DNA from: Patescibacteria group bacterium
GTDB lineage: Bacteria; Patescibacteriota; UBA1384; XYA2-FULL-43-10; 1-14-0-10-43-13
Direction: 5' to 3'
Assembly: GCA_041666325.1 (NCBI GenBank)
Contig: JBAYHC010000001.1
Coordinates: 201,708 to 265,707, forward strand
Length of the DNA stretch: 64,000 bases
The notes beneath the pieces are model-generated. The model searched no databases. It saw only the letters and a list, made by a program, of their open reading frames with translations, and had not been told where the DNA came from. Both the position numbers and the translations under genes were made by a program. This document shows, one piece after another, positions 18,987 through 49,959 of the stretch (its first letter is position 1; each line of letters begins with the position of its first letter).

Positions 18987-19257
18987 AGGGCATACAAAAA
19001 GACCCTATGGTACAGGAGTCTCTTGGAGACGGTTCCATCCTGCTTGGGTCTTAATTCACCTGTTCGCTCAGGCCTGCGTTGTGTCTCCAGGTTGGTGAAT
19101 CCTATCAACAACACAAATAATAATGTACTGATACTATACCAACTATCTGACTCAAGTGCAATATTTCGGTTGCAGCAATTAATTAGCATCTAATTAACTC
19201 TTGTAACCGGGCGCCCCGCGGATCGGGGCGCCACGTGATGTGACTTGTCGGCAGCCC

Positions 19258-20415
19258 TTAGTGGGTTGCCTCCTCCACCCGCACCTGCGGGCGTTCTGCT
19301 GGCCTCCAGGCCGGCTTGGTCTTCGACTTGACGGTCGTCATCCAGTCCCCATTGCTGTCCTGGGTGACGTAGATGACGGTACCGTCGACCTTGGCCGGGG
19401 CGATGGAGGCCTTCTTGGTCTTCTTGGCCCCAGGCACCGGTGCGCCAGTGATCCGACTGTCGCGGAGACGGTCCCGCGCGAACTCATCTGGCACCTCGCC
19501 AACCAACTTGTAGTCAAGAGCGTTGGCCGAGGCGCCTTGCCTCGTCTCCTTGGTAATGTAGACGATCACTCCGGCCCAGGCCGGGGTATCGAGACCGTAG
19601 CCACTCGCCTCACCGACCGACTTGACGTTCAGGTGTGTCCAGCCATAGTCGTCGGCCTTAATGCGATAGACCCGATGGTTGTCGACGTCGACGTAGCTGG
19701 GCCACTGTGATAGCGGCAGCCACGGCGACGCAAACCGCTGGTTGTGGGTGGTCAAGAGGTTGATGTCCACACCCTTCCCCACCACCACACCGAACTCGCT
19801 GAGGCCATTGAGCCTGACAGCCGCCTCCTCGAGGCAGCCGACTGGCTCGCGCTCCTGTCCCCAGGACGCCTCAGGCACGCCCTGGCTGCCAGCGGTCGTT
19901 TCGTTCGGCACCGCCCGGCGCAGAGTGGCCACGTTGTTGGTCTGGCCATCGCTCAGGGGCGCGCTCAACGAAAGCTCGATCTCGGTGCTGCCGTCAGCTT
20001 TCCTGCTCTGGCCGATGGCGCGCACCAGGTAGAGATTCCCCCCCATCTTGAGGCCGGCGTAGCGCCCCGCGAAGGGGAACCAACCCGGGCCATCGAACAG
20101 GTCGGCCAGGTCGGGATCGAGTTTGCTGGGGTCTACCACGGTCGTTACCACCTCGACACCACCCTCGCTCGGTTGCCTCTGCAGGTCAACGGCGAAGGTA
20201 GCGGTCAGGTGCTTGTCGCCGACCTGGTTGAAGATGATCAGGTCGCCCTTGACCTTGGGCGCTTCCGGCGAATTCGGCGCGGGCGGCTCAAGGTTGCCGG
20301 AAGCCTGCTGCGGGGTTGGTGCCTTCGGCGCCGTATCCCCAGTTGAACCCTTCTTGCAGCCGGCCGCCAGCGTGGCGGCGGCGATCAGCGGGACAACAAA
20401 CCAGGTGTAACGCAT
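19258..20415 (-). CDS. Lipoprotein of unknown function encoded on a compositionally foreign (about 65% GC) segment
   Basis: Signal peptide plus lipobox (VVPLIAAATLAAGC). The region 19.2-20.5 kb is far more GC-rich than its flanks, and a GC-only hairpin (ggcgccccgcggatcggggcgcc) follows the stop. The start was chosen at the second Met. Confidence 0.55.
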   Translation of the reverse strand: MRYTWFVVPLIAAATLAAGCKKGSTGDTAPKAPTPQQASGNLEPPAPNSPEAPKVKGDLIIFNQVGDKHLTATFAVDLQRQPSEGGVEVVTTVVDPSKLDPDLADLFDGPGWFPFAGRYAGLKMGGNLYLVRAIGQSRKADGSTEIELSLSAPLSDGQTNNVATLRRAVPNETTAGSQGVPEASWGQEREPVGCLEEAAVRLNGLSEFGVVVGKGVDINLLTTHNQRFASPWLPLSQWPSYVDVDNHRVYRIKADDYGWTHLNVKSVGEASGYGLDTPAWAGVIVYITKETRQGASANALDYKLVGEVPDEFARDRLRDSRITGAPVPGAKKTKKASIAPAKVDGTVIYVTQDSNGDWMTTVKSKTKPAWRPAERPQVRVEEATH

Positions 20416-20817
20416 CTCCGATCTCCTTCCCGAACTTCTCACGGTCTCGCCAAGGGGGCGGACCGATGCCTACCGATCAAGTTACTATCGGCCTGCAATA
20501 AGCACGAAGATCGCACTTACGAACAAGCCGATCGTAGTAATTGTCAAAGATCACGAAACCAACCCTCACCAAAAAACCGTATTAGTATATCATACTTTTT
20601 CACTTTTGTCAACATTTGTCACCGTGAACCCAGAAATTGGAGGCTAAAACTTAGCTAATTCCGTCATCCTGAACGAGTGGTAACGAAGTGAAGGATCTAG
20701 CGAAGCGAAATGAAAAAGGCTCAATACACACGGCTGCGCCTAGACTTTTCGCCTCCGGCTCAGAATGACTTAATAAATTGGATCAAATTTCTGAGTTCAG
20801 GGTTGTCAATGTGAAAA

Positions 20818-21005
20818 CCCGTGAATCAAAAAACTGATTGTCTCTGGAGTTGATTTGTTTCTATGTCATCCCAGACTTCCGCCCAGACCTCGGCTCGGTC
20901 TGATCGAGGCGGGTGATCTGGGATCCAGTCTCAAATTGCTTCTGGATCCTCGGGTCAAGCCCGAGGATGACAGCCTGGAAAAGAAAAAGTTTTTAGATTC
21001 ACGGG
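20818..21005. repeat. MITE-like element of about 188 bp, bounded by 18-bp imperfect terminal inverted repeats (cccgtgaatcaaaaaact / agtttttagattcacggg), with an inner TGTCATCC...GGATGACA palindromic module
   Basis: The terminal inverted repeats match 17 of 18 positions as reverse complements. The inner element (20864-20972) is related to the one in the thrS leader. Confidence 0.4.
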
Positions 21006-39885: not shown

Positions 39886-40221
39886 TCAGACACCCTTCCA
39901 GGTTGAAGTGTGGTTGTAGCTATTTTTAACATAAGGCAAAAGTTTAATCACGCTATCGGTATCAAATGGGATTTTTATCTTAAAGCCAATGGTTTTGTTG
40001 CCGATAATCTCCGGACCTGCTTGCCAATCTTGTTCTAGAATTTTTCGGTCTTCCGGAGTGACACGGGAAAGAATGAGAAAGTCGCCGTCAATCGAGGCAA
40101 ATTCACGGCCATTCACATAATATCTGGTCCGGCTCAGTTGCTTCTTCCGGGTTACACCTGGCCAGCGATACACTTCATTTTCAAAAATCCGCTGAGCTTT
40201 TATTGTCATGGTGTGCACCAT
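39886..40221 (-). CDS. Hypothetical protein
   Basis: An ORF of 111 aa with a plausible coding composition; no family recognised. Confidence 0.4.
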   Translation of the reverse strand: MVHTMTIKAQRIFENEVYRWPGVTRKKQLSRTRYYVNGREFASIDGDFLILSRVTPEDRKILEQDWQAGPEIIGNKTIGFKIKIPFDTDSVIKLLPYVKNSYNHTSTWKGV

Positions 40222-40337
40222 ACATAGCTATTTCAAGACAATTCTATCACAGCTACATCTGGTTGTATAAAACAGCAGGAGATGATGACCTTCGGGACAA
40301 TTTGATTGGGTGGGAACGCCGAAATACATTCGTATTT

Positions 40338-40380
40338 CCACCAAAAAATGACCTCAAATTTTGAAGTCATTTTTTGGTGG
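40338..40380. repeat. 43-nt near-perfect palindrome (ccaccaaaaaatgac...gtcattttttggtgg) downstream of the OLD-family gene
   Basis: The 15-bp arms are exact reverse complements and the central spacer is itself palindromic. Confidence 0.6.
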
Positions 40381-40587
40381 ACACGGGCGATAATTTTTGG
40401 AACACTTTCTTCGAAAAGATTTTTGAATGGGCTCCGCTGTTGCGCCAGATTAACCACACACAGAATATCCCAATTCTGGCCAGATAATCAGCCACCAGAT
40501 GCAAATAGAACACAGTATAGATATATTTAGCTTATCTAGATACGATCCCAAAGTTGTTGCCAATCTTCTCTGAAGGTATCAGCTCTA

Positions 40588-42582
40588 TCAATCTTTGAGC
40601 ACGTATTTCAAAATTTCTCTAATCGGTTTTTTGATTCCCCTGGCAGAGTTTAATGATTTCACTATCCCTATCGCAAATTCCACTTTATCGGTAACCGAAC
40701 CGCCCCCAGAAAAGCAATTTTCCAAACAGCCATTTTCTAGAACAAAAATCATTTCCTGTTCTCTAAGATTTTTAAGGAGGTTTTTAATATTGGCAGATAA
40801 GATAATTCTTTTTCTGATAGAAATTGCCCTGGTTTTGATAATTTTATCTGTAAGAGAATCAACTGCTTTTAGAAAATCTTCTTTTGGAAGCTCTTTTTTG
40901 GTTTTAATTAGATTAAACAAGCTAGCTCCGTCATAACTTCTAATCAGAACGTCCTTTAGTTTGGTAGTATTAAGACTATACAAATTATCGATCTCAGTAG
41001 ATATTGAGCTAAGTTCGGTCTTAATCTGATCGGATTGCAACAATGACCTTTCTTTTGATAAGTCCTTTAAAATATCAAGGTCTGCCACGATGTAGTTTTT
41101 AATTTTCCAGGTGTTCAGGAACTTTCTATACTTTAAAAGGTTATTTTTGCTTCCAACTGGCAATACCTCAATGACCTCATCGGATCGATGAACTCCTCTA
41201 AGCAATGAAAGCGACTTGGAAAATACCAGCTGGTCAGAGATGCCCTCCACGAGGATGACCTTATCAGCAAAGAAAACTTTTTCGTTGTTCGAAGAATTAA
41301 TTATTTGCAGAAGGTCTTTTACTGATGAACTATCGAGTAGTGACTTATTCGGCTTCAGAATCTTGCTACAATCATTATGTTTGTATATACGATATGTTGA
41401 CTGAATAATCGGCGGTACGATGATCTGAGGTGAATGAGTAATAATCAAGAATTGCAAATTGTACGTAACTGAAAGCTCTTGTATTAAATCTGTCAGCACC
41501 TTTTGCCACTGTGTGTGTTGGTGCAGCTCTGGCTCGTCTAGCAAAACCAAACCGTCTTTCAGTTCTGAAAGAACAATCCCCGAGATTAAACTAAAAAATT
41601 CTTTCTCGCCAGAACTCAATTTGATCGGCATTCCATTTAGGCGAAAGAATCGTAAACGATATTCGTGATGATAAATAATTTTTTGATCGATTACCTCGAA
41701 AGACATTGAGAGGTATCTCTCTAGCACTTTTCTGAATGCAGTCAAAATTTTACTGTTTTTATTTTGGTCATACAATCTAACGATGTGCTGGTAACTAGTA
41801 TCAACTATGCCGATATAAGTATCCTTGGACTGGTTTAGACCTTTTGCAAAATTCTTGTCAATATTGTTCTGTGTTAAATCAACAACGATTTCTTTCTGAA
41901 CCTGATTTACGTTTCGGTGGGGACCTATGTATCTAAAATTTGGAGCAATTTTAATATTGCTTGAGAGAGCCGATATCTCGTACAAAACATTAAAGTATGG
42001 AAGAATTTCAAAAAACCGTTGAACAATTTCCGACAACTCTGGCTTGTCAGAATAAGCGCCAATAATTGAGTTGCTAGCTATCACAATTTTTAAAGTAGTT
42101 CCAATCAAAGATTCAAAGACATCATCGTAAAAAAATCTCTCGATACTGTTGGCCACCTGTCCCGAATCTTGGAAATCCTTTTTAAGAAATAAAACTAAGT
42201 CTTCCTTAAATTTCGCAATTTCTTTCAAAATATTGATGTCTTCTTCCTTAATTGAAAAATATAGTTCCAGCGATGACTCTTCGGAGGTATGAGAGTAGTG
42301 CCTTTCAAACATCTCTGCAATTAGGTTGGGATCCCAATTATCAAACTGTAGCTTATAATGATAACCATAGTTAGCTGAGTTCGGGTTGGCCCGTTCTGTG
42401 TTATAAGTGATCGTAACGTGCTTATAGATTACTGAAGAAATCGCCCCTTGTATTAATTCAAACAGATTGCTCTTACCTCCACCGTTTGGTCCAACGAAAA
42501 CGTTGAGTCCGTCTCCAAAAAGTACCTCTTCGGCTGGATAGTAGCTTTTCAGGTTTTTGACAATCGCCCTATTTAGTTTCAT
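40588..42582 (-). CDS. OLD-family nuclease: N-terminal ABC-type ATPase (AAA_21-like) fused to a C-terminal Toprim domain
   Basis: Walker A GPNGGGKSNLFE, Walker B LVLLDEPELHQH, H-loop ITHSP; Toprim motifs ILVEGISDQ and VADLD. Confidence 0.75.
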   Translation of the reverse strand: MKLNRAIVKNLKSYYPAEEVLFGDGLNVFVGPNGGGKSNLFELIQGAISSVIYKHVTITYNTERANPNSANYGYHYKLQFDNWDPNLIAEMFERHYSHTSEESSLELYFSIKEEDINILKEIAKFKEDLVLFLKKDFQDSGQVANSIERFFYDDVFESLIGTTLKIVIASNSIIGAYSDKPELSEIVQRFFEILPYFNVLYEISALSSNIKIAPNFRYIGPHRNVNQVQKEIVVDLTQNNIDKNFAKGLNQSKDTYIGIVDTSYQHIVRLYDQNKNSKILTAFRKVLERYLSMSFEVIDQKIIYHHEYRLRFFRLNGMPIKLSSGEKEFFSLISGIVLSELKDGLVLLDEPELHQHTQWQKVLTDLIQELSVTYNLQFLIITHSPQIIVPPIIQSTYRIYKHNDCSKILKPNKSLLDSSSVKDLLQIINSSNNEKVFFADKVILVEGISDQLVFSKSLSLLRGVHRSDEVIEVLPVGSKNNLLKYRKFLNTWKIKNYIVADLDILKDLSKERSLLQSDQIKTELSSISTEIDNLYSLNTTKLKDVLIRSYDGASLFNLIKTKKELPKEDFLKAVDSLTDKIIKTRAISIRKRIILSANIKNLLKNLREQEMIFVLENGCLENCFSGGGSVTDKVEFAIGIVKSLNSARGIKKPIREILKYVLKD

Positions 42583-42599
42583 TATTTCTCTCAGAATGA

Positions 42600-43442
42600 T
42601 TAATGGACGTAGATTTCTTTGCTTTTTATTCTATCTTTTAGATTTACTCTCTCAACGACACTTCTCAACAGTTGCTCGCTATGGGAATATACAAATCGGT
42701 CACAATTTAAGGCAACGTTATCGTTGATATGGCGACAATGTCTTCTGTCTGCTTTGTAAAAGGCAACATCCTTTCCCTCATCAAACATAGCAAGATAGAA
42801 ACTCTTTGAAAGCGGAATTGCTTTCACGGCACCTTTTGTAATAACGCCAACCCCACGATAAGGGCTGTTTTCAACGGGCGAAAACAAGACAAATGGATTA
42901 TCTGAAGTAATGTATGCACTGCTTTGAGGAGCAAAAATAATTCTCCAGCTCATATGCGCAAAATACGAAGCCATTTCAGCGCTGATCTCTAGTAAAAGCT
43001 TTATTTCATATTCTCTGCTCTGTTCAACCTTCACTTCAAGCCTATTGCCACCAGGCCTCTCAAACATTTGAGCCAATTTGGTTAATGCCGCTTCAGATAG
43101 TTCTTTGGTATGCTTTGAAAAATAAGGGACACGGTTCTTTTGCAAGGCGACGAAAAACGATAATTGTGCTTTTTCTTTTTCGCTCAGTGACTCACTCTTT
43201 TCGATTTTGCCGATGACGGCACTGGCGTCACCCTCAATTTCTGAAAACTTTTTCTCTAGATCATAGTGATACTTGCCATCTTCCCCAAGATAGCGATAGT
43301 AATTTGAAATAACAGCTGTGTCCTTAATGCCCAAGTGCTTATATTCATTTGTGGTCCTATCATAAACCCAAATATACCCATCTGTTGCAAAACGAGATAG
43401 GACCATTTGCGGTAAGAAATGATGTCTTTTTGGTTCACCCAT
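42600..43442 (-). CDS. DUF4238-family protein
   Basis: About 280 aa with an N-terminal HHFLPQ motif typical of DUF4238 (HHY[IV]PQ); lies 17 nt upstream of the OLD-family gene on the same strand. Confidence 0.55.
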   Translation of the reverse strand: MGEPKRHHFLPQMVLSRFATDGYIWVYDRTTNEYKHLGIKDTAVISNYYRYLGEDGKYHYDLEKKFSEIEGDASAVIGKIEKSESLSEKEKAQLSFFVALQKNRVPYFSKHTKELSEAALTKLAQMFERPGGNRLEVKVEQSREYEIKLLLEISAEMASYFAHMSWRIIFAPQSSAYITSDNPFVLFSPVENSPYRGVGVITKGAVKAIPLSKSFYLAMFDEGKDVAFYKADRRHCRHINDNVALNCDRFVYSHSEQLLRSVVERVNLKDRIKSKEIYVH

Positions 43443-43524
43443 AGGTTAATTCAGCAACAAGGAACGAAATAAGCGCTTACTCTAATTTGGTTTTTGTATT
43501 ACTAAGCATTCCGATTGCTAGCCG

Positions 43525-44112
43525 CTACTCATACAGCTTTAATCTAATGGAGTCAATTTTCCTCAGTAGGTCGTGTTGAGTCGAAACCATTTGCTGAATT
43601 TGAAGCTCTGTATATCTAGCCCTTCTGTTTTTGAAGGGATCATTTGTGACAGCCATCTTGTATTTCAGGAAGCAATTTTCAAGATTATCATCGAAGCAAA
43701 AATCTTCAATAATTTTCGCTTCTGTGAATTTTTTTATATCGTTAAGCTGATGCATTGCGCAGTTGAAATCGTAGTCAACTCGCCCTGCTTTTTGATCTGA
43801 CGGGTTGCTGGTGTAATCATTCGCTGAATTCAAAGTTTTTTCAATTGCACTGCGAAAATCTGCCAAGAATCCCAAAACAATTTCTTTTTTCTTGGAACTA
43901 TCACTTACACTCTCACTTATATAGTGGGTCACAAACAAGGCGACAATAATCGTTACAAGCAGATTAAGCAAGTTGGAAAAAGAAAAATCCCAGAACTTAT
44001 CTGGCAAAATATTCCATCGAAGCACAAGAGCAGAAATGACAAAGCCAATAACAAAAAAGATAAAGGAAAGCGATATTCGAGCCGAATTTTTCCTGATTAT
44101 CCTTTTCATCAA
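43525..44112 (-). CDS. Hypothetical protein with two N-terminal TM helices
   Basis: TM helices ISLSFIFFVIGFVISALVL and LLNLLVTIIVALFVTHYI; its start overlaps the stop of the upstream STAS-like gene. Confidence 0.45.
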   Translation of the reverse strand: MMKRIIRKNSARISLSFIFFVIGFVISALVLRWNILPDKFWDFSFSNLLNLLVTIIVALFVTHYISESVSDSSKKKEIVLGFLADFRSAIEKTLNSANDYTSNPSDQKAGRVDYDFNCAMHQLNDIKKFTEAKIIEDFCFDDNLENCFLKYKMAVTNDPFKNRRARYTELQIQQMVSTQHDLLRKIDSIRLKLYE

Positions 44113-44414
44113 GCATTCTCTATATAACTTTCTATCTCGCGTTTTAGAATCGAATTTGTTGTGATTAAATTTATTCTGTTCTGCACTGCATTCTTGTCTT
44201 TAATCACCCTGACAAGGCCGCCGAAGGCCTCCTCGAAGAAGGAAGTCGGGTATCCTGCTAAGCCATCCAGATATACGTTGATAATTTCGTTTGATTTTGT
44301 TTGGAATAATGGCTCGAGAAATTTTTCTCTGAATTCCTCACCAGAAAAATCACTCTTTTGCTTAAATCTTCCACCAGGAGAAATCGTAAAATCTTTAATG
44401 AAGACGTTTTTCAT
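44109..44414 (-). CDS. DUF4325 (STAS-like, anti-sigma-factor-antagonist-like) protein
   Basis: About 100 aa with VYLDGLAGYPTSFFEEAFGGLV resembling the STAS-like DUF4325 core; lies directly downstream of a GHKL ATPase. Confidence 0.5.
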   Translation of the reverse strand: MKNVFIKDFTISPGGRFKQKSDFSGEEFREKFLEPLFQTKSNEIINVYLDGLAGYPTSFFEEAFGGLVRVIKDKNAVQNRINLITTNSILKREIESYIENA

Positions 44415-44430
44415 TTCAAAATTCCTAAAA

Positions 44431-45441
44431 TTAAAGTTGAAAATCCCACGAAAACAAAGTTCCTCGAAAGCCTTCTTTTATAGAGATGTGTTGGCTAAAG
44501 TGCACAGCACTAATAAAACCACGATTGGATACTATTTTCAAATTATCTATTTTCTTTCTATTCGAAATCTCATATATTTGGGGCAGCCCCTTACCTCTAT
44601 TTTTTTGTTTGGTTCTAGATCTCTTGAATTTTCCCTCAAGCGCGGATCTAATTAAGTCGGCGTCAGATCTAATAAGATATTTGAGTACAATTTCAGCAAA
44701 GTTCTTTCTCACGGTTGTCGGAATCCCTTGTCCATTATCCAGGAACGCAAAACTTATCTTGCGAATATCTGCGTTGTAATATGCAGCGGTCCACCATTTG
44801 GGAAGCGGCGAATCAGATAGATACGCGTGCTCGTTGGTGTTATTCATTAGTTCAACAAGCGTTTCATATATTCCTTCCGTGGACCTCTTGGGACCATTCA
44901 TTTTGCTTGCAACAAATTCAACAACCTTTAAGACAACGGCGCCCTGTGTCCTCTCGCCTGATTGTATTGAAAAGATATCATCATTCATTCGAGGGGGATC
45001 CCCTCTTACGAGTTTGACGAATTTATAGAATCCGGAATCACGGAATATCATCCTGCATTTTTCCTCTCGCGGCTCATTCCCCTGAATGCTAGGGGCCACC
45101 CGTTTAGTGCCGAAAAACTCGAGGAGAGACAGGAGATACAGGATTGCGTCAAGGGTAATTTCACTCACAACCGAAAGATCAAGAAAAACAGAATAGCCCT
45201 TGTTGACGTTATTCTCAATTCTTCCACAAAATTCCAGAAAATGTTGGTGATCATTCAAGATACTGAAAACAGAAGGGGCGATAACTCTCTTGAAAATTCG
45301 AGATAGTTTAGTTGCTTTAATAAGTCCACGCTTCTTGCGCTTTCTTATTAAGTTCTTTTTAGCGATTATCCTAGATCGCTTCTTCCATTTTTCGGTGACC
45401 TTTTTCATTTGGTATAATAGTATCAAACGAGGGCTAGTCAT
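44431..45441 (-). CDS. GHKL (HATPase_c) ATPase with a basic N-terminal extension
   Basis: N-box ELMNNTNEHA, G1 DNGQGIP, G2 GKGLPQI. Confidence 0.65.
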   Translation of the reverse strand: MTSPRLILLYQMKKVTEKWKKRSRIIAKKNLIRKRKKRGLIKATKLSRIFKRVIAPSVFSILNDHQHFLEFCGRIENNVNKGYSVFLDLSVVSEITLDAILYLLSLLEFFGTKRVAPSIQGNEPREEKCRMIFRDSGFYKFVKLVRGDPPRMNDDIFSIQSGERTQGAVVLKVVEFVASKMNGPKRSTEGIYETLVELMNNTNEHAYLSDSPLPKWWTAAYYNADIRKISFAFLDNGQGIPTTVRKNFAEIVLKYLIRSDADLIRSALEGKFKRSRTKQKNRGKGLPQIYEISNRKKIDNLKIVSNRGFISAVHFSQHISIKEGFRGTLFSWDFQL

Positions 45442-45469
45442 ACTACCTAACTAACCCATTTGTCTTCTT

Positions 45470-46000
45470 ATGCAATGCCAATTTGAAAAATCAGACGGTA
45501 AGCAGTGTGGGGGCTACTCAGTGAGCAGCAGCCATTTTTGCTTTTCGCACGATCCAAAAAGCAAGAAAAAGCACTTGAGGGCAGCTAAGAAGGGTGGATT
45601 GGCTTTGAAGAGTAATAGTACTGTTTTAGCGGAAGAAATTGATCTAAGTTCGTCTGAAGGGCTAGAGAACGTACTAAAAGATACGCTTAGCAGAGTAAGA
45701 CGCGTAAACCCTGATGGCTCAATCGAATTAAAAGCGGCTTATTGTATAACCCTCATTGTGTCAAAACTTCAAGAAATACATCTGAAAAGCTACCCAGAAG
45801 ACAGGCTTAAGGAAATTGAACGCAGAGAATTTGAACTAAGGGAGCAAGAGCGCGCAAGAGAAGCATCACACCAGAGACATAGTCGGCTTTGGGAAGAAAA
45901 CCCAGAAAAAGCAGCCGAAGAGATAATGGTTCACACTAACCTGCTGCTGAAACGCGCGTTAAGAGACCGTGAGTCAAGAAAACTCGGTATGAATATATAA
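45470..46000 (+). CDS. Hypothetical protein: N-terminal Cys/His cluster and charged coiled-coil C-terminus
   Basis: CQFEKSDGKQCGGYSVSSSHFCFSHD and an ERREFELREQERAREA-type charged segment. Confidence 0.4.
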   Translation: MQCQFEKSDGKQCGGYSVSSSHFCFSHDPKSKKKHLRAAKKGGLALKSNSTVLAEEIDLSSSEGLENVLKDTLSRVRRVNPDGSIELKAAYCITLIVSKLQEIHLKSYPEDRLKEIERREFELREQERAREASHQRHSRLWEENPEKAAEEIMVHTNLLLKRALRDRESRKLGMNI

Positions 46001-46004
46001 ACCT

Positions 46005-46607
46005 TTAATCCAATTCCTGAATAGCACTCTTTAGGGCTTCCGCGTTTACTGATTTGATGCCCTCCCTCATCAAAGCTTTCAATGAAATGCTTTTCTTGTT
46101 TTTGATAAGCTCGATTAGCCTATCCTTTGTGAAGACGAAAAATTCCCATTGAGTGAGATCTAAGGGGTTAGCCGTATCGTGGGAGTCTGCCGAGAAGTAA
46201 CAAATAACGAATAAATCCGCATTAAAGCTTGGCGTCTCTTCCATAATCCCCGTCAATGGGTTCCATTTACGGGTTGGAGATAGAGCTACTTTAGGCTCAG
46301 ATAACCGCTTTTGAGCCCACGCCTGGAGTTGAGACATTGTTTTGATTTCAATGGTTTTGCCCTCTTTTGTTTTGAGATCGTACGCATCCCAAGGGATTCT
46401 TGGTTTATCATCACAACCCAAAAGAACAGCCACAACATATTCAGCAAGCACTGCTCTCGTAGTGTTTTGCATTAAGTCAGAGTACGCCCATTGCCAAAAA
46501 TCAACGATAGTTCGGTTTAAGCAATTGCTTGTTTCGTTATTATAAAAAGCAGAACCACATTCCAGTTTAGAGACTGGCTTTGGGGTCAGTAAAAGATCTT
46601 TATTCAT
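46005..46607 (-). CDS. PD-(D/E)xK nuclease-fold-like protein, hypothetical
   Basis: Candidate motif WDAYDL...(x11)...IEIKT, i.e. D...ExK; otherwise unrecognised. Confidence 0.45.
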   Translation of the reverse strand: MNKDLLLTPKPVSKLECGSAFYNNETSNCLNRTIVDFWQWAYSDLMQNTTRAVLAEYVVAVLLGCDDKPRIPWDAYDLKTKEGKTIEIKTMSQLQAWAQKRLSEPKVALSPTRKWNPLTGIMEETPSFNADLFVICYFSADSHDTANPLDLTQWEFFVFTKDRLIELIKNKKSISLKALMREGIKSVNAEALKSAIQELD

Positions 46608-46917
46608 TTTTTCCTTGGTCGGATTTGTTTTGTGGCAGAGAGCAAAAAGCCCGCCGCCACTAGCAGCCCCGTAGGGCTACACGTACATCTTTCGATGCAC
46701 GACCGACCAAGGTCCGTGACGACGAGCTCACTACCTTGGTCGGAATTTTCCACCGTGCTCACTATTATCTAATGAGGTTAGGTGGTTTCTCGGTTGTGTT
46801 AACGACAGGAATTATAAAATTCCCTTATGCTTAATATAGCAGAAATTAGTCATTCCCTCAACCTTATCCACAGATATCAGTTTGAATATATTTATACATT
46901 AATGTATAAATTAAATA

Positions 46918-47682
46918 ATGGAAAAAGAAGGCACTGAAAAATTTAGCGATTTATGTAAGAAAAAATACTCGGCCAAAGAGGTTGGCATCTCTTATAGAAT
47001 TTTAAGCAGCTGGAGCTCTCTTGGCCTAATCAACCACCTGAGAGACAAAGAAAATGATTGGCATCGTTTTTCGGCTTTTGATCTGATTGAGATAAGAGTA
47101 TATGACGAGCTTCGGCAGGTTGGCTTTTCTGTGGAGAAGCTCTTAAAAATCAAGAAATTTTTACGCGCACAGTCAGTTCTAGCCATATTTTTCTCTGATT
47201 CGAATTTATCAAAAGAGTACGTCGAGGACCTTGGCAAGTCTACAATATTAGTTGAATCAATCTTGAGAACTGCAGCAGGAGAAAACATTTTTCTTGTTAT
47301 TGATAAAGATGCAGCAAATCCTATGTTTGCAGAAGAAACGATCGTGTATGAATTATTAGCGCAAGCGAATTCTATTTATAATGAGTATGGTGGCAACTAT
47401 TTGGTTCTGAGTGTCCGAACAATTCTTGAGAATGTTAGTGTACCATACGAAAAATCTAATCATAAGCTCGGAAAAGTGCTGACAGCAATTCTTGATTCCG
47501 AAGAACAATCAGAGATTAAACTTTTCGTTCAAGACTGTGAATTAAAGAAAGCAAAGCATACTCTATATGATGTTCCCCTTGGTACGAATATTACAGCTCT
47601 TATAAAACAACCCAACAGAAAAACTTCATTCAGCTCCAACAATAACGGTTCCGTCAAAATGAAAATTGAAGCTGAACTATAA
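46918..47682 (+). CDS. MerR-family HTH protein (possible excisionase or regulator of the element)
   Basis: YSAKEVGISYRILSSW...FSAFDLIEIRVYDELRQVGFSVEKLLKI resembles a MerR HTH; located upstream of the recombinase. Confidence 0.5.
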   Translation: MEKEGTEKFSDLCKKKYSAKEVGISYRILSSWSSLGLINHLRDKENDWHRFSAFDLIEIRVYDELRQVGFSVEKLLKIKKFLRAQSVLAIFFSDSNLSKEYVEDLGKSTILVESILRTAAGENIFLVIDKDAANPMFAEETIVYELLAQANSIYNEYGGNYLVLSVRTILENVSVPYEKSNHKLGKVLTAILDSEEQSEIKLFVQDCELKKAKHTLYDVPLGTNITALIKQPNRKTSFSSNNNGSVKMKIEAEL

Positions 47683-47761
47683 AAACTAGAATCCCTAGTT
47701 TCTTTTACCAACAGTTCAAGTAGCAGCGATCCTACTACGCGATCGAATCTGGTATGAGAAA

Positions 47762-47902
47762 ATGTTATCAATCGACGAGTGTAGAGATTATTTAAAAGAA
47801 TATAATTTAAGCGACGAAGAGATCGAAAGAATGAGGAACAATCTGCAAGGAATAGTTGAAAGTGTACTCGATTCCTATATCGAAGGATTCAAAAATGATT
47901 AA
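47762..47902 (+). CDS. Possible small acidic helical ORF (46 aa) overlapping the recombinase start
   Basis: MLSIDECRDYLKEYNLSDEEIERMRNNLQGIVESVLDSYIEGFKND; found by hand and not in the ORF track; weak support. Confidence 0.25.
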   Translation: MLSIDECRDYLKEYNLSDEEIERMRNNLQGIVESVLDSYIEGFKND

Positions 47903-49487
47903 CGATACAAACAAGGCACTAATTTATTGTCGGGTTTCTTCCCCGCGCCAGATTAAGGAGGGTCACGGCTTAGAAAACCAAGAACACAGGTGTAGACAGT
48001 ACGCAGTGGAGAAGAAGCTCAAAGTTGTCGAGGTATTCTCTGAAGACGAGAGCGCTAGCGGTGGCCTTTTTGACCGTCCTGCAATGAAAGAACTGCTCAA
48101 TTTTCTTGACAGGAATCAGTCAGAAAGATACTTCGTAATATTCGATGATCTAAAACGTTTTGCGAGAGATGTAGAGGTTCATTTTAGACTAAAGACTGAA
48201 TTGGTTAAACTGCGTGCAGTAAAGCTACGCTGTCTCAATTTTAATTTCGACGACAGCCCTGAAGGCAGGTTCGTTGAAACTATGTTTGCAGCCTGTGCTC
48301 AGCTCGAAAGAGAACAAAATAAGAGGCAGGTAATACAAAAACAAAAAGCACGACTGGAAAATGGCTACTGGACTTTTTATCCGCCAGCTGGCTATGAGTA
48401 TAAAAAATCGAGGGTGCACGGCAAGCTTCTATACCAAGTGCATCCATTGGCAGAAACGTTAGGCAAGGTCATCGAAGACTTCGCGACGAATCGTCTAATT
48501 GGGAAGGTAGACGTCGTCAGAAGGCTTGTAGAACTAGGTATTCTAAAAGAAAGTGCACCAGAAACAACTAATTTTAATTTTGTTAGAAGATTGCTAAGTA
48601 ATCCCATCTATGCGGGATTCATTGAATATAAACCTTGGCAAGTTCCAATAAGGAAAGGCCATCACAAGGCAGTTATTACCGAGGAAGTACACAGATTAGC
48701 TTTAAATAAAATGGAGAAACCTGAAAGAATGCCAAGGAATACTGATTCTTTGGAATGGCCATTAAGGAGACTGGTCGATTGCTCCATTTGTGGTAAACAA
48801 TACACCGGGAGTGCAAACCGAAGTAAGAATCCCGACAAACACTATCCGCATTATACGTGTAATAATAAATATTGCACTGCTAGTCCTAAAAACATCACTA
48901 AAGAAATCGTAGAGGAAAAATTCCTTAAACTTCTCAAGTCAATCGGGGCAGACAAACCTGTATTGGATTTGGCGAGGGCAATGATACTTCAGATGTGGAA
49001 GGAAAAGGAAAAAAATTTCAATACAAAGAAATCAAATGGTCTTAAGAGGATCGGGCAGATTGATGTAGAAATTGAGAGCTTTTTAAGCAGAATTCCGAAG
49101 GCAAAATCAGAGTCACTAGTTGCACTATATGAATCAAAAATTGACAAACTCGAGAATGAGAAAAAAGAAATTGAAAAAAGCTTGAAAAACAAAAAAGAAC
49201 CCAACCTAAACGAAGCAATAGATTTGGTTCTTAATTTCCTTGGAACACCCGCTGAATTCTGGAAATATGCAGACCTAGAAAGAAAAATATTAATTCATAG
49301 CCTGATTTTCATTAAAAACCCAGAATTCTCTCTAGAAACAGGTTTTGGAACACCTAATTTGTCTCTACCATTCTACATAAAGCACTATGTAATGGACCAG
49401 GATGATACGTTGGTGGAGGTGGAGGGAGTTGCACCCTCGTCCAAGAGGTTAAAAACTGCCTATTGTAGCAAGCTTAGCTCCGGTTGA
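47895..49487 (+). CDS. Large serine recombinase (resolvase domain, recombinase domain and zinc ribbon)
   Basis: Catalytic ALIYCRVSSPRQ; a recombinase-domain region; a C-terminal CSICGK...CNNKYC zinc ribbon. The start is set at the ATG preceded by aagga. Confidence 0.85.
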   Translation: MINDTNKALIYCRVSSPRQIKEGHGLENQEHRCRQYAVEKKLKVVEVFSEDESASGGLFDRPAMKELLNFLDRNQSERYFVIFDDLKRFARDVEVHFRLKTELVKLRAVKLRCLNFNFDDSPEGRFVETMFAACAQLEREQNKRQVIQKQKARLENGYWTFYPPAGYEYKKSRVHGKLLYQVHPLAETLGKVIEDFATNRLIGKVDVVRRLVELGILKESAPETTNFNFVRRLLSNPIYAGFIEYKPWQVPIRKGHHKAVITEEVHRLALNKMEKPERMPRNTDSLEWPLRRLVDCSICGKQYTGSANRSKNPDKHYPHYTCNNKYCTASPKNITKEIVEEKFLKLLKSIGADKPVLDLARAMILQMWKEKEKNFNTKKSNGLKRIGQIDVEIESFLSRIPKAKSESLVALYESKIDKLENEKKEIEKSLKNKKEPNLNEAIDLVLNFLGTPAEFWKYADLERKILIHSLIFIKNPEFSLETGFGTPNLSLPFYIKHYVMDQDDTLVEVEGVAPSSKRLKTAYCSKLSSG

Positions 49488-49959
49488 TTTATTCGAACAG
49501 GAGATAAGACCGGAACGGAAATCTACTGCTCTATCTCGAGTATATCTTAGGGCTTCACGCTAGAGAATCGATTGCCCGCAACTCGAAGTATGACACTCAT
49601 ACCCTCTAGTCGAGTAGCTAGAGGATGAGCGGTTGCCGTTATTTAAGCAGCAACTGGCGCAAGAGCAAAGCCGCTAAAAGCTGCTTTAACTCTGCTAACA
49701 AGTGAGTTTGCACTTGAGATTTTCCGGCAATTAAGGCTGCCAAGATCACCTGCTTGCTAGATCAGTTTTTAAAGTTCCTATTGTCGAAGCTAATACACCC
49801 CCGAACACATCTTATTATACCTAATATTGACAAAAAATCAACTTGCTCGACTCCGATTCTTGCAGTGGTCAAACCAAAACTAGACAATGTCGTTTCGAAA
49901 TGGTATAAATCTGTGGGCAGCAGAATACCTACTATTCTGCTGGATGAAGGAGAGACAAA

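What the first reader, a model, noticed from the sequence alone, without database searches (positions are those of the whole stretch)
40588..43442. Fused OLD-family ATPase-Toprim nuclease paired with a DUF4238 protein: candidate two-gene anti-phage module
Seen in the sequence: a 664-aa protein with complete ABC-ATPase motifs (GPNGGGKS; LLDEPE; ITHSP) and a C-terminal Toprim (ILVEGISDQ; VADLD). It sits 17 nt downstream of a 280-aa HHFLPQ-containing DUF4238-like protein on the same strand, inside an AT-rich island that carries a serine recombinase.

Established knowledge: OLD-family ATPase plus Toprim nucleases are the effectors of P2 Old, Gabija GajA, PARIS AriAB and Septu-like systems. Their partners are normally helicases (UvrD-like GajB) or DUF4435, not DUF4238. 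DUF4238 has itself been noted in defence islands; I recall an association with the Dazbog system but am not certain.

Inference: this pairing looks like an undescribed OLD-variant defence or abortive-infection system.
Basis: partly seen in the sequence, partly recalled or inferred. Interest (0 to 1): 0.85.

Follow-up and report, generated by a model that had tools for sequence, protein, structure and literature searches.

The report
Two separate defence genes, not a pair
The two genes are real and are probably both anti-phage genes, but relatives of each are almost never found next to the other, so they look like two independent single-gene defence cassettes stacked in a mobile island, not a new two-gene system.

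Summary
A 664-aa OLD-family ABC-ATPase/Toprim nuclease (40588-42582, minus strand) lies 17 nt downstream of a 280-aa DUF4238 protein (42600-43442, minus strand). Both sit in a low-GC island of about 9.5 kb, next to a large serine recombinase and the tmRNA gene of a Patescibacteria MAG.

- None of 85 loci encoding OLD relatives has a DUF4238 gene in the fetched flanks (up to 8 kb each side). This includes the 71% and 61% identical homologues.
- Only 2 of 100 DUF4238 loci have an OLD-like gene nearby. One is a canonical GajA+GajB Gabija. In the other a further gene separates the two.
- Neither family has any conserved neighbour.
- The 71% homologue shares DNA homology with the window that stops 5 nt upstream of the OLD start codon. 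In a related island, restriction-modification genes occupy the slot that holds DUF4238 here.

Best reading: a stand-alone (Class 1-type) OLD nuclease and a stand-alone DUF4238 gene, a family already shown to work as a single-gene anti-T7 system, placed side by side as island cargo.

In passing: the adjacent GHKL-like/DUF4325/membrane-protein triad is conserved as a triad, and a LOOT RNA lies in the island.

The parts
40588..42582 (-). Stand-alone (Class 1-type) OLD-family nuclease, 664 aa. It has an N-terminal ABC ATPase with an inserted domain (about residues 50-320) and a C-terminal OLD-type Toprim plus helical region.
   Evidence: ORF. Pfam AAA_15, AAA_21 and OLD-like_TOPRIM. Best PADLOC model is 'Old', 1e-26. 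Catalytic motifs are invariant in clade alignment A1. The AF2 model's best PDB match is TsOLD 6p74, E 9e-13. A 100% identical protein is annotated in a Patescibacteria MAG.
42600..43442 (-). DUF4238 (PF14022) protein, 280 aa. It belongs to a family with a validated single-gene anti-phage member. It lacks an internal helical segment of about 30 aa that all close relatives have.
   Evidence: Pfam 1.4e-44. PADLOC DUF4238-Pers 2.9e-7, partial match. 4134 representative clusters at E<=1e-3. Alignments A2 and A3 show the conserved H8, D181, P183 and N240 and the internal deletion. AF2 model pLDDT 94.8.
42583..42599 (-). 17-nt spacer between the DUF4238 stop codon and the OLD start codon. A purine-rich GAGAGAA lies 4 nt upstream of the ATG. 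Co-transcription is likely but was not shown.
   Evidence: Sequence. A sigma-70-like site (TTGAGA-16-TAGAAT) lies at 42655..42628 inside the DUF4238 3' end, but such sites are not enriched over shuffles.
39900..49410 (.). Low-GC genomic island (approximate bounds) that carries the cargo genes. The left boundary is set by composition only.
   Evidence: GC profile. No att-type direct repeat was found. That is expected for a serine recombinase, which has a short crossover site.
47856..49487 (+). Large serine recombinase (integrase) of the island. Its last 77 nt overlap the 3' end of the tmRNA gene on the opposite strand.
   Evidence: Pfam Resolvase, Recombinase and Zn_ribbon_recom. phrog_95 integrase 3e-68. 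NCBIfam XisF-like.
49411..49802 (-). tmRNA gene (ssrA), the probable integration target that bounds the island.
   Evidence: ARAGORN. Rfam RF00023, 93.7 bits.
43525..45441 (-). Separate three-gene cassette directly upstream on the same strand. It consists of a 336-aa GHKL-like ATPase, a 101-aa DUF4325 (STAS-like) protein and a 195-aa protein with an N-terminal hydrophobic (probable transmembrane) segment. It is part of the cargo and is not part of an OLD/DUF4238 unit.
   Evidence: The triad is conserved in all 3 homologue loci examined (L188, L189, L190).

Best explanation
The locus holds two independent single-gene anti-phage cassettes. They were placed side by side as cargo in a serine-recombinase island next to the tmRNA gene of a Patescibacteria genome.

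Gene 1 is a stand-alone, Class 1-type OLD nuclease. By analogy with characterised Class 1 OLDs, it is inferred to form a homodimer through the domain inserted in its ABC ATPase. ATP binding or hydrolysis would then license the C-terminal two-metal Toprim nuclease once an infection cue appears. The nuclease would cut nucleic acid and stop phage replication, probably at the cost of the cell. The known substrates of relatives are DNA (nicking or 5'-3' degradation by TsOLD and VcOLD) and tRNA anticodon stems (P2 Old).

Gene 2 is a DUF4238 protein acting on its own. One family member protects E. coli against T7 as a single gene. Its biochemical activity is unknown. The confident model shows a beta-sheet core with an inserted helical bundle, and conserved His, Asp and Asn residues (H8; D181-N182-P183; N240) that could form a catalytic or ligand-binding site.

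The 17-nt spacing reflects compact packing of cargo and probably read-through transcription. It does not indicate a functional partnership.

Shown here: domain identities, intact motifs, absence of conserved partners, and the modular island context. Inferred: defence function in this host, the substrates and the triggers.
For: Identity of the two genes.

No coupling, seen from the OLD side:
- A DUF4238 HMM finds the window's own gene at 2e-101 as a positive control.
- The same HMM hits none of 84 OLD-relative loci with flanks up to 8 kb, 40 of them full-length clade members. L183, the 61% homologue, adds a further locus without DUF4238, giving 0 of 85.
- The 71% homologue P0002 lies between a divergent HTH_17 gene with restriction-modification genes and DUF4411/M78 genes.
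- The 61% homologue P0004 is flanked by SocA_Panacea and HTH genes.
- The 39% homologues have unrelated neighbours.
- All-against-all clustering of neighbours finds no family shared by more than 5 of 40 loci. The largest cluster is a generic ABC transporter.

No coupling, seen from the DUF4238 side:
- Of 97 loci, 58 have at least 2.2 kb on one side. Only L145 and L091 contain an OLD-like gene.
- L145 reads YgjP, DUF4238, GajA, GajB (UvrD), Mrr-like. That is a complete Gabija next door.
- L091 has an unrelated 274-aa gene between the two.
- Three annotated plasmid loci have none.
- The closest homologue (56%) has no OLD start in the 168 nt downstream.
- Another homologue sits inside a type I restriction-modification operon.
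- No neighbour family is shared by more than 3 loci.

Modularity: DNA homology between the window and L001 covers the OLD gene and ends 5 nt upstream of its ATG. A second shared block is the 176-aa gene. Between these two anchors the window carries the triad plus DUF4238, whereas L001 carries ResIII, a methyltransferase and HTH_17.

Literature: DUF4238 is a single-protein system active against T7 (PMC9122126). Class 1 OLDs are defined as single-gene systems (PMC10568477; PMC12392090). P2 Old cleaves tRNA anticodon stems (PMC12445682).
Against: - The same strand, the 17-nt gap and the absence of a convincing terminator or promoter between the genes fit an operon, so a local functional link cannot be excluded from sequence alone.
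- The window's DUF4238 has a unique internal deletion of about 30 aa. This could be lineage-specific adaptation or decay.
- The sampling is limited. At most 80 loci were returned per scan, many metagenome contigs are short, and only the window's own genome carries this exact pair. A rare, young pairing would therefore escape a conservation test.
- Structural discrimination between OLD classes is marginal (E 9e-13 for Class 1 TsOLD against 4e-12 to 8e-12 for Class 3 and Class 2 structures).
- No experimental data exist for either protein, and none for any Patescibacteria defence gene of these families.
Confidence: 0.8

Rival explanations
1. The pair is a genuine, lineage-specific two-gene system. 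DUF4238 would act as sensor or regulator, or as a second effector, for the OLD nuclease. The two would be co-transcribed and mutually dependent, in the way GajA depends on GajB or AriA on AriB.
For: Same strand, a 17-nt gap and no clear terminator between the genes. OLD nucleases do recruit varied partners in Classes 2-4 (PMC10568477; PMC12392090). One other locus (L145) has DUF4238 directly upstream of an OLD-family gene on the same strand.
Against: - 0 of 85 OLD-relative loci have DUF4238, including the 71% and 61% identical homologues.
- Only 2 of 100 DUF4238 loci have any OLD-like gene. The directly adjacent case is a complete GajA-GajB Gabija that needs no third partner.
- No fusion proteins were found.
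- DNA homology to the closest OLD relative stops at the OLD start codon.
- DUF4238 works alone in E. coli (PMC9122126).
Confidence: 0.06
2. One or both genes are decaying or non-defence cargo. For example, the internally deleted DUF4238 may be inactive, or the OLD-like ATPase-nuclease may serve island maintenance or DNA repair instead of phage defence.
For: The window's DUF4238 lacks a segment of about 30 aa that is present in all 20 closest relatives. No experimental evidence exists for defence by Class 1 OLDs in Patescibacteria. The review notes that only a few Class 1 OLDs have shown defence.
Against: - Both ORFs are full length with every invariant family residue intact.
- The DUF4238 model is very confident (pLDDT 94.8), and the deletion falls in a loop between helices.
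- The contexts of relatives are consistently defence-type or mobile: restriction-modification, Gabija, HEPN, toxin-antitoxin genes and integrases.
- Class 1 OLDs have now been shown to defend in V. cholerae, and E. coli YbjD gives anti-phage phenotypes.
Confidence: 0.12

Closest known systems
Class 1 OLD family nucleases (P2 Old, Thermus scotoductus OLD PDB 6P74, Vibrio cholerae OLD, E. coli YbjD)
   Same: A single polypeptide with an N-terminal ABC ATPase carrying an inserted domain and a C-terminal OLD-type Toprim. The Walker A, Walker B, signature and H-loop motifs and the Toprim E/DxD motifs are intact. No conserved partner gene is present. The best PDB fold match is TsOLD.
   Different: The protein is longer (664 aa against 528 for TsOLD, the length recorded for that PDB chain). 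Sequence similarity to solved OLDs is very low (phmmer E 9e-6 to 6p74 over residues 342-481 only). The host is a Patescibacteria MAG. Substrate, trigger and defence activity are untested. The review says Class 1 genes are typically not near other defence genes, whereas this one sits in a cargo-rich island.
DUF4238 single-gene anti-phage system (Rousset et al. 2022, P2 hotspot; PADLOC 'DUF4238-Pers')
   Same: The same Pfam family, PF14022, matched end to end. It is a stand-alone gene with variable neighbours on mobile elements.
   Different: It is only distantly related to the validated E. coli subfamily (PADLOC model 2.9e-7, 28 bits, residues 138-234 only). It is about 30 aa shorter than its relatives because of an internal deletion. 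Activity is untested.
Gabija (GajA Class 2 OLD + GajB UvrD-like helicase)
   Same: The ATPase-Toprim architecture. GajA HMMs match the C-terminal half at 1e-17 to 1e-12. GajA structures are among the top fold matches.
   Different: No helicase gene lies downstream or anywhere in the island. The best profile is 'Old', not GajA. The one DUF4238 locus directly next to an OLD-family gene (L145) is a true GajA-GajB pair, and it shows what Gabija looks like.
PARIS (AriA ABC ATPase + AriB DUF4435/Toprim; fused AriAB forms)
   Same: An ABC ATPase of the AAA_15/AAA_21 type. AriA and AriAB models match at 4e-21 and 3e-17.
   Different: The Toprim matches the OLD-like PF20469 model, and no DUF4435 hit was obtained. 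The AriA match covers only the generic ATPase part.

Membership tests
OLD family nucleases (general) | N-terminal ABC-type ATPase with Walker A, signature, Walker B and H-loop motifs | tested here: met
   Pfam AAA_15 5e-21, AAA_21 4e-16 and SMC_N 1e-11. G31/K37, LSSGE322-326, D349-E350 and H383 are invariant in A1.
OLD family nucleases (general) | C-terminal OLD-type Toprim domain with the catalytic Glu and DxD acidic residues | tested here: met
   PF20469 4e-15 at residues 437-503. E446, D450 and D501 are invariant, and D503 is conserved at 90% or more.
OLD family nucleases (general) | Overall fold like solved OLD proteins | tested here: met
   AF2 model pLDDT 85. Foldseek top hits are 6p74 TsOLD (9e-13), the retron Eco8 OLD and GajA.
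Class 1 OLD | Single-gene system with no conserved partner gene in the neighbourhood | tested here: met
   No neighbour family is shared by more than 5 of 40 clade loci. The neighbours of the 71%, 61% and 39% homologues all differ.
Class 1 OLD | Nuclease and ATPase activity; anti-phage or abortive-infection phenotype | not testable with these tools
   This needs biochemistry and phage assays.
Class 2 OLD / Gabija | [quoted passage not shown] | tested here: not met
   Downstream of the OLD stop codon lie about 350 nt without a convincing gene, then a 111-aa ORF with no Pfam hit. No helicase domain occurs in any island protein.
Class 3 OLD / retron I-B | Adjacent reverse transcriptase and retron ncRNA | tested here: not met
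   None of the ten island proteins has an RT domain. Rfam finds only the tmRNA, tRNAs and a LOOT RNA in the window.
Class 4 OLD / PARIS | AriB-type DUF4435 Toprim, separate or fused, with an AriA ATPase | tested here: not met
   The Toprim matches PF20469, and no DUF4435 hit was obtained at E<=0.01. The AriA and AriAB PADLOC hits are weaker than 'Old' and cover the generic ATPase.
DUF4238 (PF14022) | Profile match above the gathering score over the full domain, including the N-terminal HHxLPxxYL and central SDNPF motifs | tested here: met
   153 bits against a cutoff of 27, profile positions 1-280 of 281. H8, L15, F18, D181, P183 and N240 are invariant in 65 sequences.
DUF4238 single-gene defence system (Rousset 2022 / PADLOC DUF4238-Pers) | Membership of the experimentally validated subfamily | tested here: inconclusive
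   The PADLOC model hit is weak and partial (2.9e-7, residues 138-234). Viral-contig relatives are only 21-32% identical.
DUF4238 single-gene defence system (Rousset 2022 / PADLOC DUF4238-Pers) | Acts alone: no conserved partner gene | tested here: met
   No neighbour family is shared by more than 3 of 97 loci. It is described as a single-protein system in PMC9122126.
Proposed new OLD+DUF4238 two-gene system | Recurrent adjacency of the two genes across genomes | tested here: not met
   0 of 85 OLD loci. 2 of 100 DUF4238 loci; in one the adjacent OLD is the GajA of a complete Gabija, and in the other a gene separates the two.
Dazbog | Match to DzbA/DzbB models | tested here: not met
   At E<=0.01 the only PADLOC family hit by the 280-aa protein is DUF4238-Pers. 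I assumed that PADLOC-DB v2 contains Dazbog models and did not verify this.

The most novel reading that the evidence does not exclude
In this Patescibacteria lineage the internally shortened DUF4238 protein has been recruited as a partner (sensor or modulator) of a Class 1-type OLD nuclease. That would be a very young two-gene system that conservation tests cannot yet detect. Separately, DUF4238 appears to have a fold with no solved relative, so its mechanism could be of a new kind.
Probability: 0.06. Interest if true: 0.6.

Novelty: new member of a known kind. Interest (0 to 1): 0.22.

Why it matters
If the pairing had been real, it would have added a fifth partner class to the OLD nuclease family. 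The evidence says it is not, so the locus is mainly a catalogue entry: a divergent stand-alone OLD nuclease and a divergent DUF4238 gene in an ultra-small-genome (Patescibacteria) bacterium.

It has modest value in three ways.
- It shows that tiny CPR genomes spend an island of about 9.5 kb on stacked defence cargo, mobilised by a serine recombinase at the tmRNA gene.
- It documents a variable cargo slot between two conserved island genes.
- It confirms with a high-confidence model that DUF4238 has no structural relative in the PDB. DUF4238 therefore remains an uncharacterised defence protein worth biochemical study.

The neighbouring conserved GHKL-like/DUF4325/membrane-protein triad is the better candidate for a new multi-gene module.

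Tried and rejected
- att-site search: I looked for direct repeats of the tmRNA 3' end at the far end of the island (repeat finder; blastn-short). Nothing exceeded chance, so the left boundary rests on GC content only.
- Rosetta-stone fusions: the long DUF4238 proteins P0214 (667 aa), P0171 and P0232 carry no OLD or ATPase domain.
- The metagenome scan with the 65-sequence alignment A2 failed for lack of a conserved block. I repeated it with the 21-sequence A3.
- tblastn of DUF4238 against the annotated phage collection gave no match.
- Promoter and terminator scans around the junction were not enriched over shuffles, so they do not settle co-transcription.
- The largest shared neighbour cluster of the OLD clade (5 loci) turned out to be a generic ABC transporter and not a partner.
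- Canonical GajA, a retron effector and PARIS were considered and rejected (see the membership tests).
Full report
**1. Observation**

The ORF list shows a 664-aa ORF at 40588..42582 and a 280-aa ORF at 42600..43442, both on the minus strand and separated by 17 nt (sequence).

The 664-aa protein:
- It matches Pfam AAA_15 (5e-21), AAA_21 (4e-16), SMC_N, and OLD-like_TOPRIM PF20469 at residues 437-503 (4e-15).
- In a 33-sequence alignment of its clade, all ABC-ATPase motifs and the Toprim acidic residues are invariant or nearly so. These are G31/K37, LSSGE322-326, D349-E350, H383, E446, D450 and D501, plus D503 at 90% or more.

The 280-aa protein matches PF14022 DUF4238 over the whole profile (1.4e-44).

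GC drops to 0.37-0.42 between about 40 and 50 kb. A 543-aa large serine recombinase (47856..49487) lies against the tmRNA gene (49411..49802, minus strand). A 100% identical OLD protein is on record from a Patescibacteria MAG with a 687-kb contig.

**2. What the two proteins are**

For the OLD protein, the best PADLOC model is 'Old' (1e-26), ahead of AriA, GajA and the retron I-B ATPase-Toprim. Its AlphaFold model (pLDDT 85) matches T. scotoductus OLD (6p74, Class 1) best, at E 9e-13. The retron Eco8 OLD and GajA follow at 4e-12 to 8e-12. So it is clearly an OLD-family fold, but fold comparison alone barely separates the classes.

OLD classes are defined by gene context (PMC10568477; PMC12392090):
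- Class 1 is a single gene.
- Class 2 has a downstream UvrD-like GajB.
- Class 3 is linked to a retron reverse transcriptase and ncRNA.
- Class 4 is PARIS AriA/AriB.

The island has no helicase, reverse transcriptase or DUF4435 protein.

**3.

*From the OLD side*
- I built a DUF4238 HMM from 65 relatives. It recovers the window's own gene at 2e-101.
- I scanned four loci of close homologues plus 80 genome loci encoding OLD relatives, with flanks up to 8 kb. There were no DUF4238 hits.
- The 61% homologue (L183) also lacks DUF4238, which makes 0 of 85 loci.
- The 71% homologue (L001) is preceded by a divergent HTH_17 gene and a methyltransferase/ResIII pair.
- The 61% homologue is preceded by HTH and SocA_Panacea genes.
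- All-against-all clustering of neighbours in 40 full-length clade loci finds no family in more than 5 loci. The largest is a generic ABC transporter.

*From the DUF4238 side*
- I examined 97 loci: 80 metagenomic, 15 viral and 2 from exact look-ups. Of these, 58 have at least 2.2 kb on one side.
- Only two contain a match to the OLD HMM.
- L145 reads YgjP-like, DUF4238, GajA (638 aa), GajB UvrD helicase (673 aa), Mrr-like. That is a complete Gabija system sitting next door.
- In L091, a prophage contig, a 274-aa gene separates an OLD-like gene from DUF4238.
- Three annotated plasmid loci have no OLD gene.
- The closest DUF4238 homologue (56%) has 168 nt downstream with no OLD start.
- Another homologue sits inside a type I restriction-modification operon between hsdS and hsdR.
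- No neighbour family recurs in more than 3 DUF4238 loci.
- None of the unusually long DUF4238 proteins is fused to an ATPase or a Toprim.

**4. Direct evidence of modularity**

DNA homology between the window and L001 spans window 40643-42587. It therefore stops 5 nt upstream of the OLD start codon. A second shared block is the 176-aa gene (45469-45821). Between these two shared anchors the window carries GHKL-like, DUF4325, the 195-aa gene and DUF4238. L001 carries ResIII, N6_N4 methyltransferase and HTH_17 in the same slot.

The HTH_17 gene next to the OLD homologue in L001 is 55% identical to the HTH_17 gene next to the closest DUF4238 homologue in L182. Related islands therefore carry either gene without the other. 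Several OLD loci and one DUF4238 locus also carry large serine recombinases.

**5. Positive control for the method**

The three genes just upstream of DUF4238 are the 336-aa GHKL-like ATPase, the 101-aa DUF4325 protein and the 195-aa protein with an N-terminal hydrophobic segment. They are conserved as a triad, in the same order, in all three homologue loci I looked up (L188, L189, L190). The third genes align end to end. A true multi-gene module in this same island is thus readily detected, whereas DUF4238-OLD is not.

**6. Mechanism (best explanation)**

The locus holds two independent single-gene defence cassettes.

The OLD protein most likely works like other Class 1 OLDs. It would dimerise through the ATPase insertion, and ATP would license a two-metal Toprim nuclease that cuts DNA or tRNA after an infection cue. 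Relatives nick or degrade DNA (TsOLD, VcOLD) or cut tRNA anticodon stems (P2 Old; PMC12445682).

DUF4238 most likely acts alone. Its chemistry is unknown. The conserved His, Asp and Asn residues on a fold with no solved relative suggest an enzymatic or ligand-binding site. All functional statements for this locus are inferences. What is shown is identity, intactness, lack of coupling and mobile context.

The tight spacing probably means co-transcription. In a compact genome, that is not evidence of partnership.

**7. Rivals**
- A young, lineage-specific partnership cannot be excluded by conservation tests. I give it about 6%.
- One or both genes may be inactive or may not serve defence. I give this about 12%. 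The intact motifs and the defence-type contexts of relatives argue against it.

**8. Novelty and score**

Both genes are new, divergent members of known kinds (Class 1-type OLD; DUF4238 single-gene system). The proposed new system is not supported. Interest is low (0.22). What remains of interest is the CPR host, the cargo-slot architecture, the lack of any solved structural relative for DUF4238, and the side observations (the conserved triad and the LOOT RNA).

Noticed in passing
window 43525-45441 (-); also L188 4001-5900, L189 4001-5926, L190 4001-5838: A three-gene cassette is conserved as a triad, in the same order, in all 3 homologue loci examined. It consists of a 336-aa protein, a 101-aa DUF4325 STAS-like protein and a 195-aa protein. 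The 336-aa protein has GHKL-like N, G1 and G2 boxes by eye (phrog_3364 1e-42) but no Pfam hit. The 195-aa protein has an N-terminal hydrophobic (probable transmembrane) segment. One of the three loci lies next to phage terminase genes. No PADLOC v2, Pfam (other than DUF4325) or NCBIfam hit was found. A PHROG profile (phrog_5816, 441 positions) matches the DUF4325 protein at its C-terminal end, so it may represent a longer protein that ends in this domain. This is a candidate undescribed kinase/STAS partner-switching-like module with a membrane component.
   Followed up: partly
window 46662-46784 (-); L001 94-223 (+); L009 2837-2959 (-): A full-length LOOT RNA (Rfam RF03000, 71.5 bits against a gathering score of 46.4) lies inside the island, 55 nt upstream of the 200-aa ORF 46005-46607. 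The same RNA occurs in two other Patescibacteria loci that carry OLD homologues. A model built from the three copies shows 17 of 33 pairs with compensatory changes. That model finds no other copy in about 180 further loci, apart from one weak hit in L177. The downstream genes differ in all three loci, so its role is unclear. It may be a component of this island family.
   Followed up: partly
window 49411-49487: The last 77 nt of the serine recombinase ORF (plus strand) overlap the 3' end of the tmRNA gene (minus strand). This suggests that the island inserted into ssrA and supplies the gene's present 3' end. No direct repeat marks the other island end.
   Followed up: partly
window 45470-46000 (+) and L001 1139-1660 (-): A 176-aa protein with no family match is 54% identical to a gene in the related island L001. 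Together with the OLD gene it brackets a slot whose contents differ between the two islands (triad plus DUF4238 against a ResIII/methyltransferase restriction-modification system). This is a defence cargo hotspot in Patescibacteria islands.
   Followed up: partly
window 42600-43442 (-), residues about 127-143: The window's DUF4238 lacks a segment of about 30 residues between two helices of the helical insertion, which all 20 closest relatives have. Public annotation of the identical protein (P0121, 268 aa) starts at Met13. That start would remove the conserved HHFLPQ motif, so the longer start is probably the correct one.
   Followed up: partly
L006 214-8509: A DUF4238 homologue (34% identical), split into two ORFs by a frameshift or a gene-calling artefact, sits inside a type I restriction-modification operon between hsdS and hsdR. 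Abortive-infection genes such as PrrC occupy the same position in other such operons (the PrrC comparison is from my own knowledge; the locus data are).
   Followed up: no
window 46005-46607 (-): A 200-aa ORF has no family hit. It has a D...EIK-type motif (YDLKTKEGKTIEIKT) reminiscent of PD-(D/E)xK nucleases. It lies directly downstream of the LOOT RNA.
   Followed up: no
window 19001-21000: A GC-rich stretch (0.54-0.60 against about 0.44 elsewhere). It is not rRNA according to the Rfam gathering scan. I did not examine it further.
   Followed up: no
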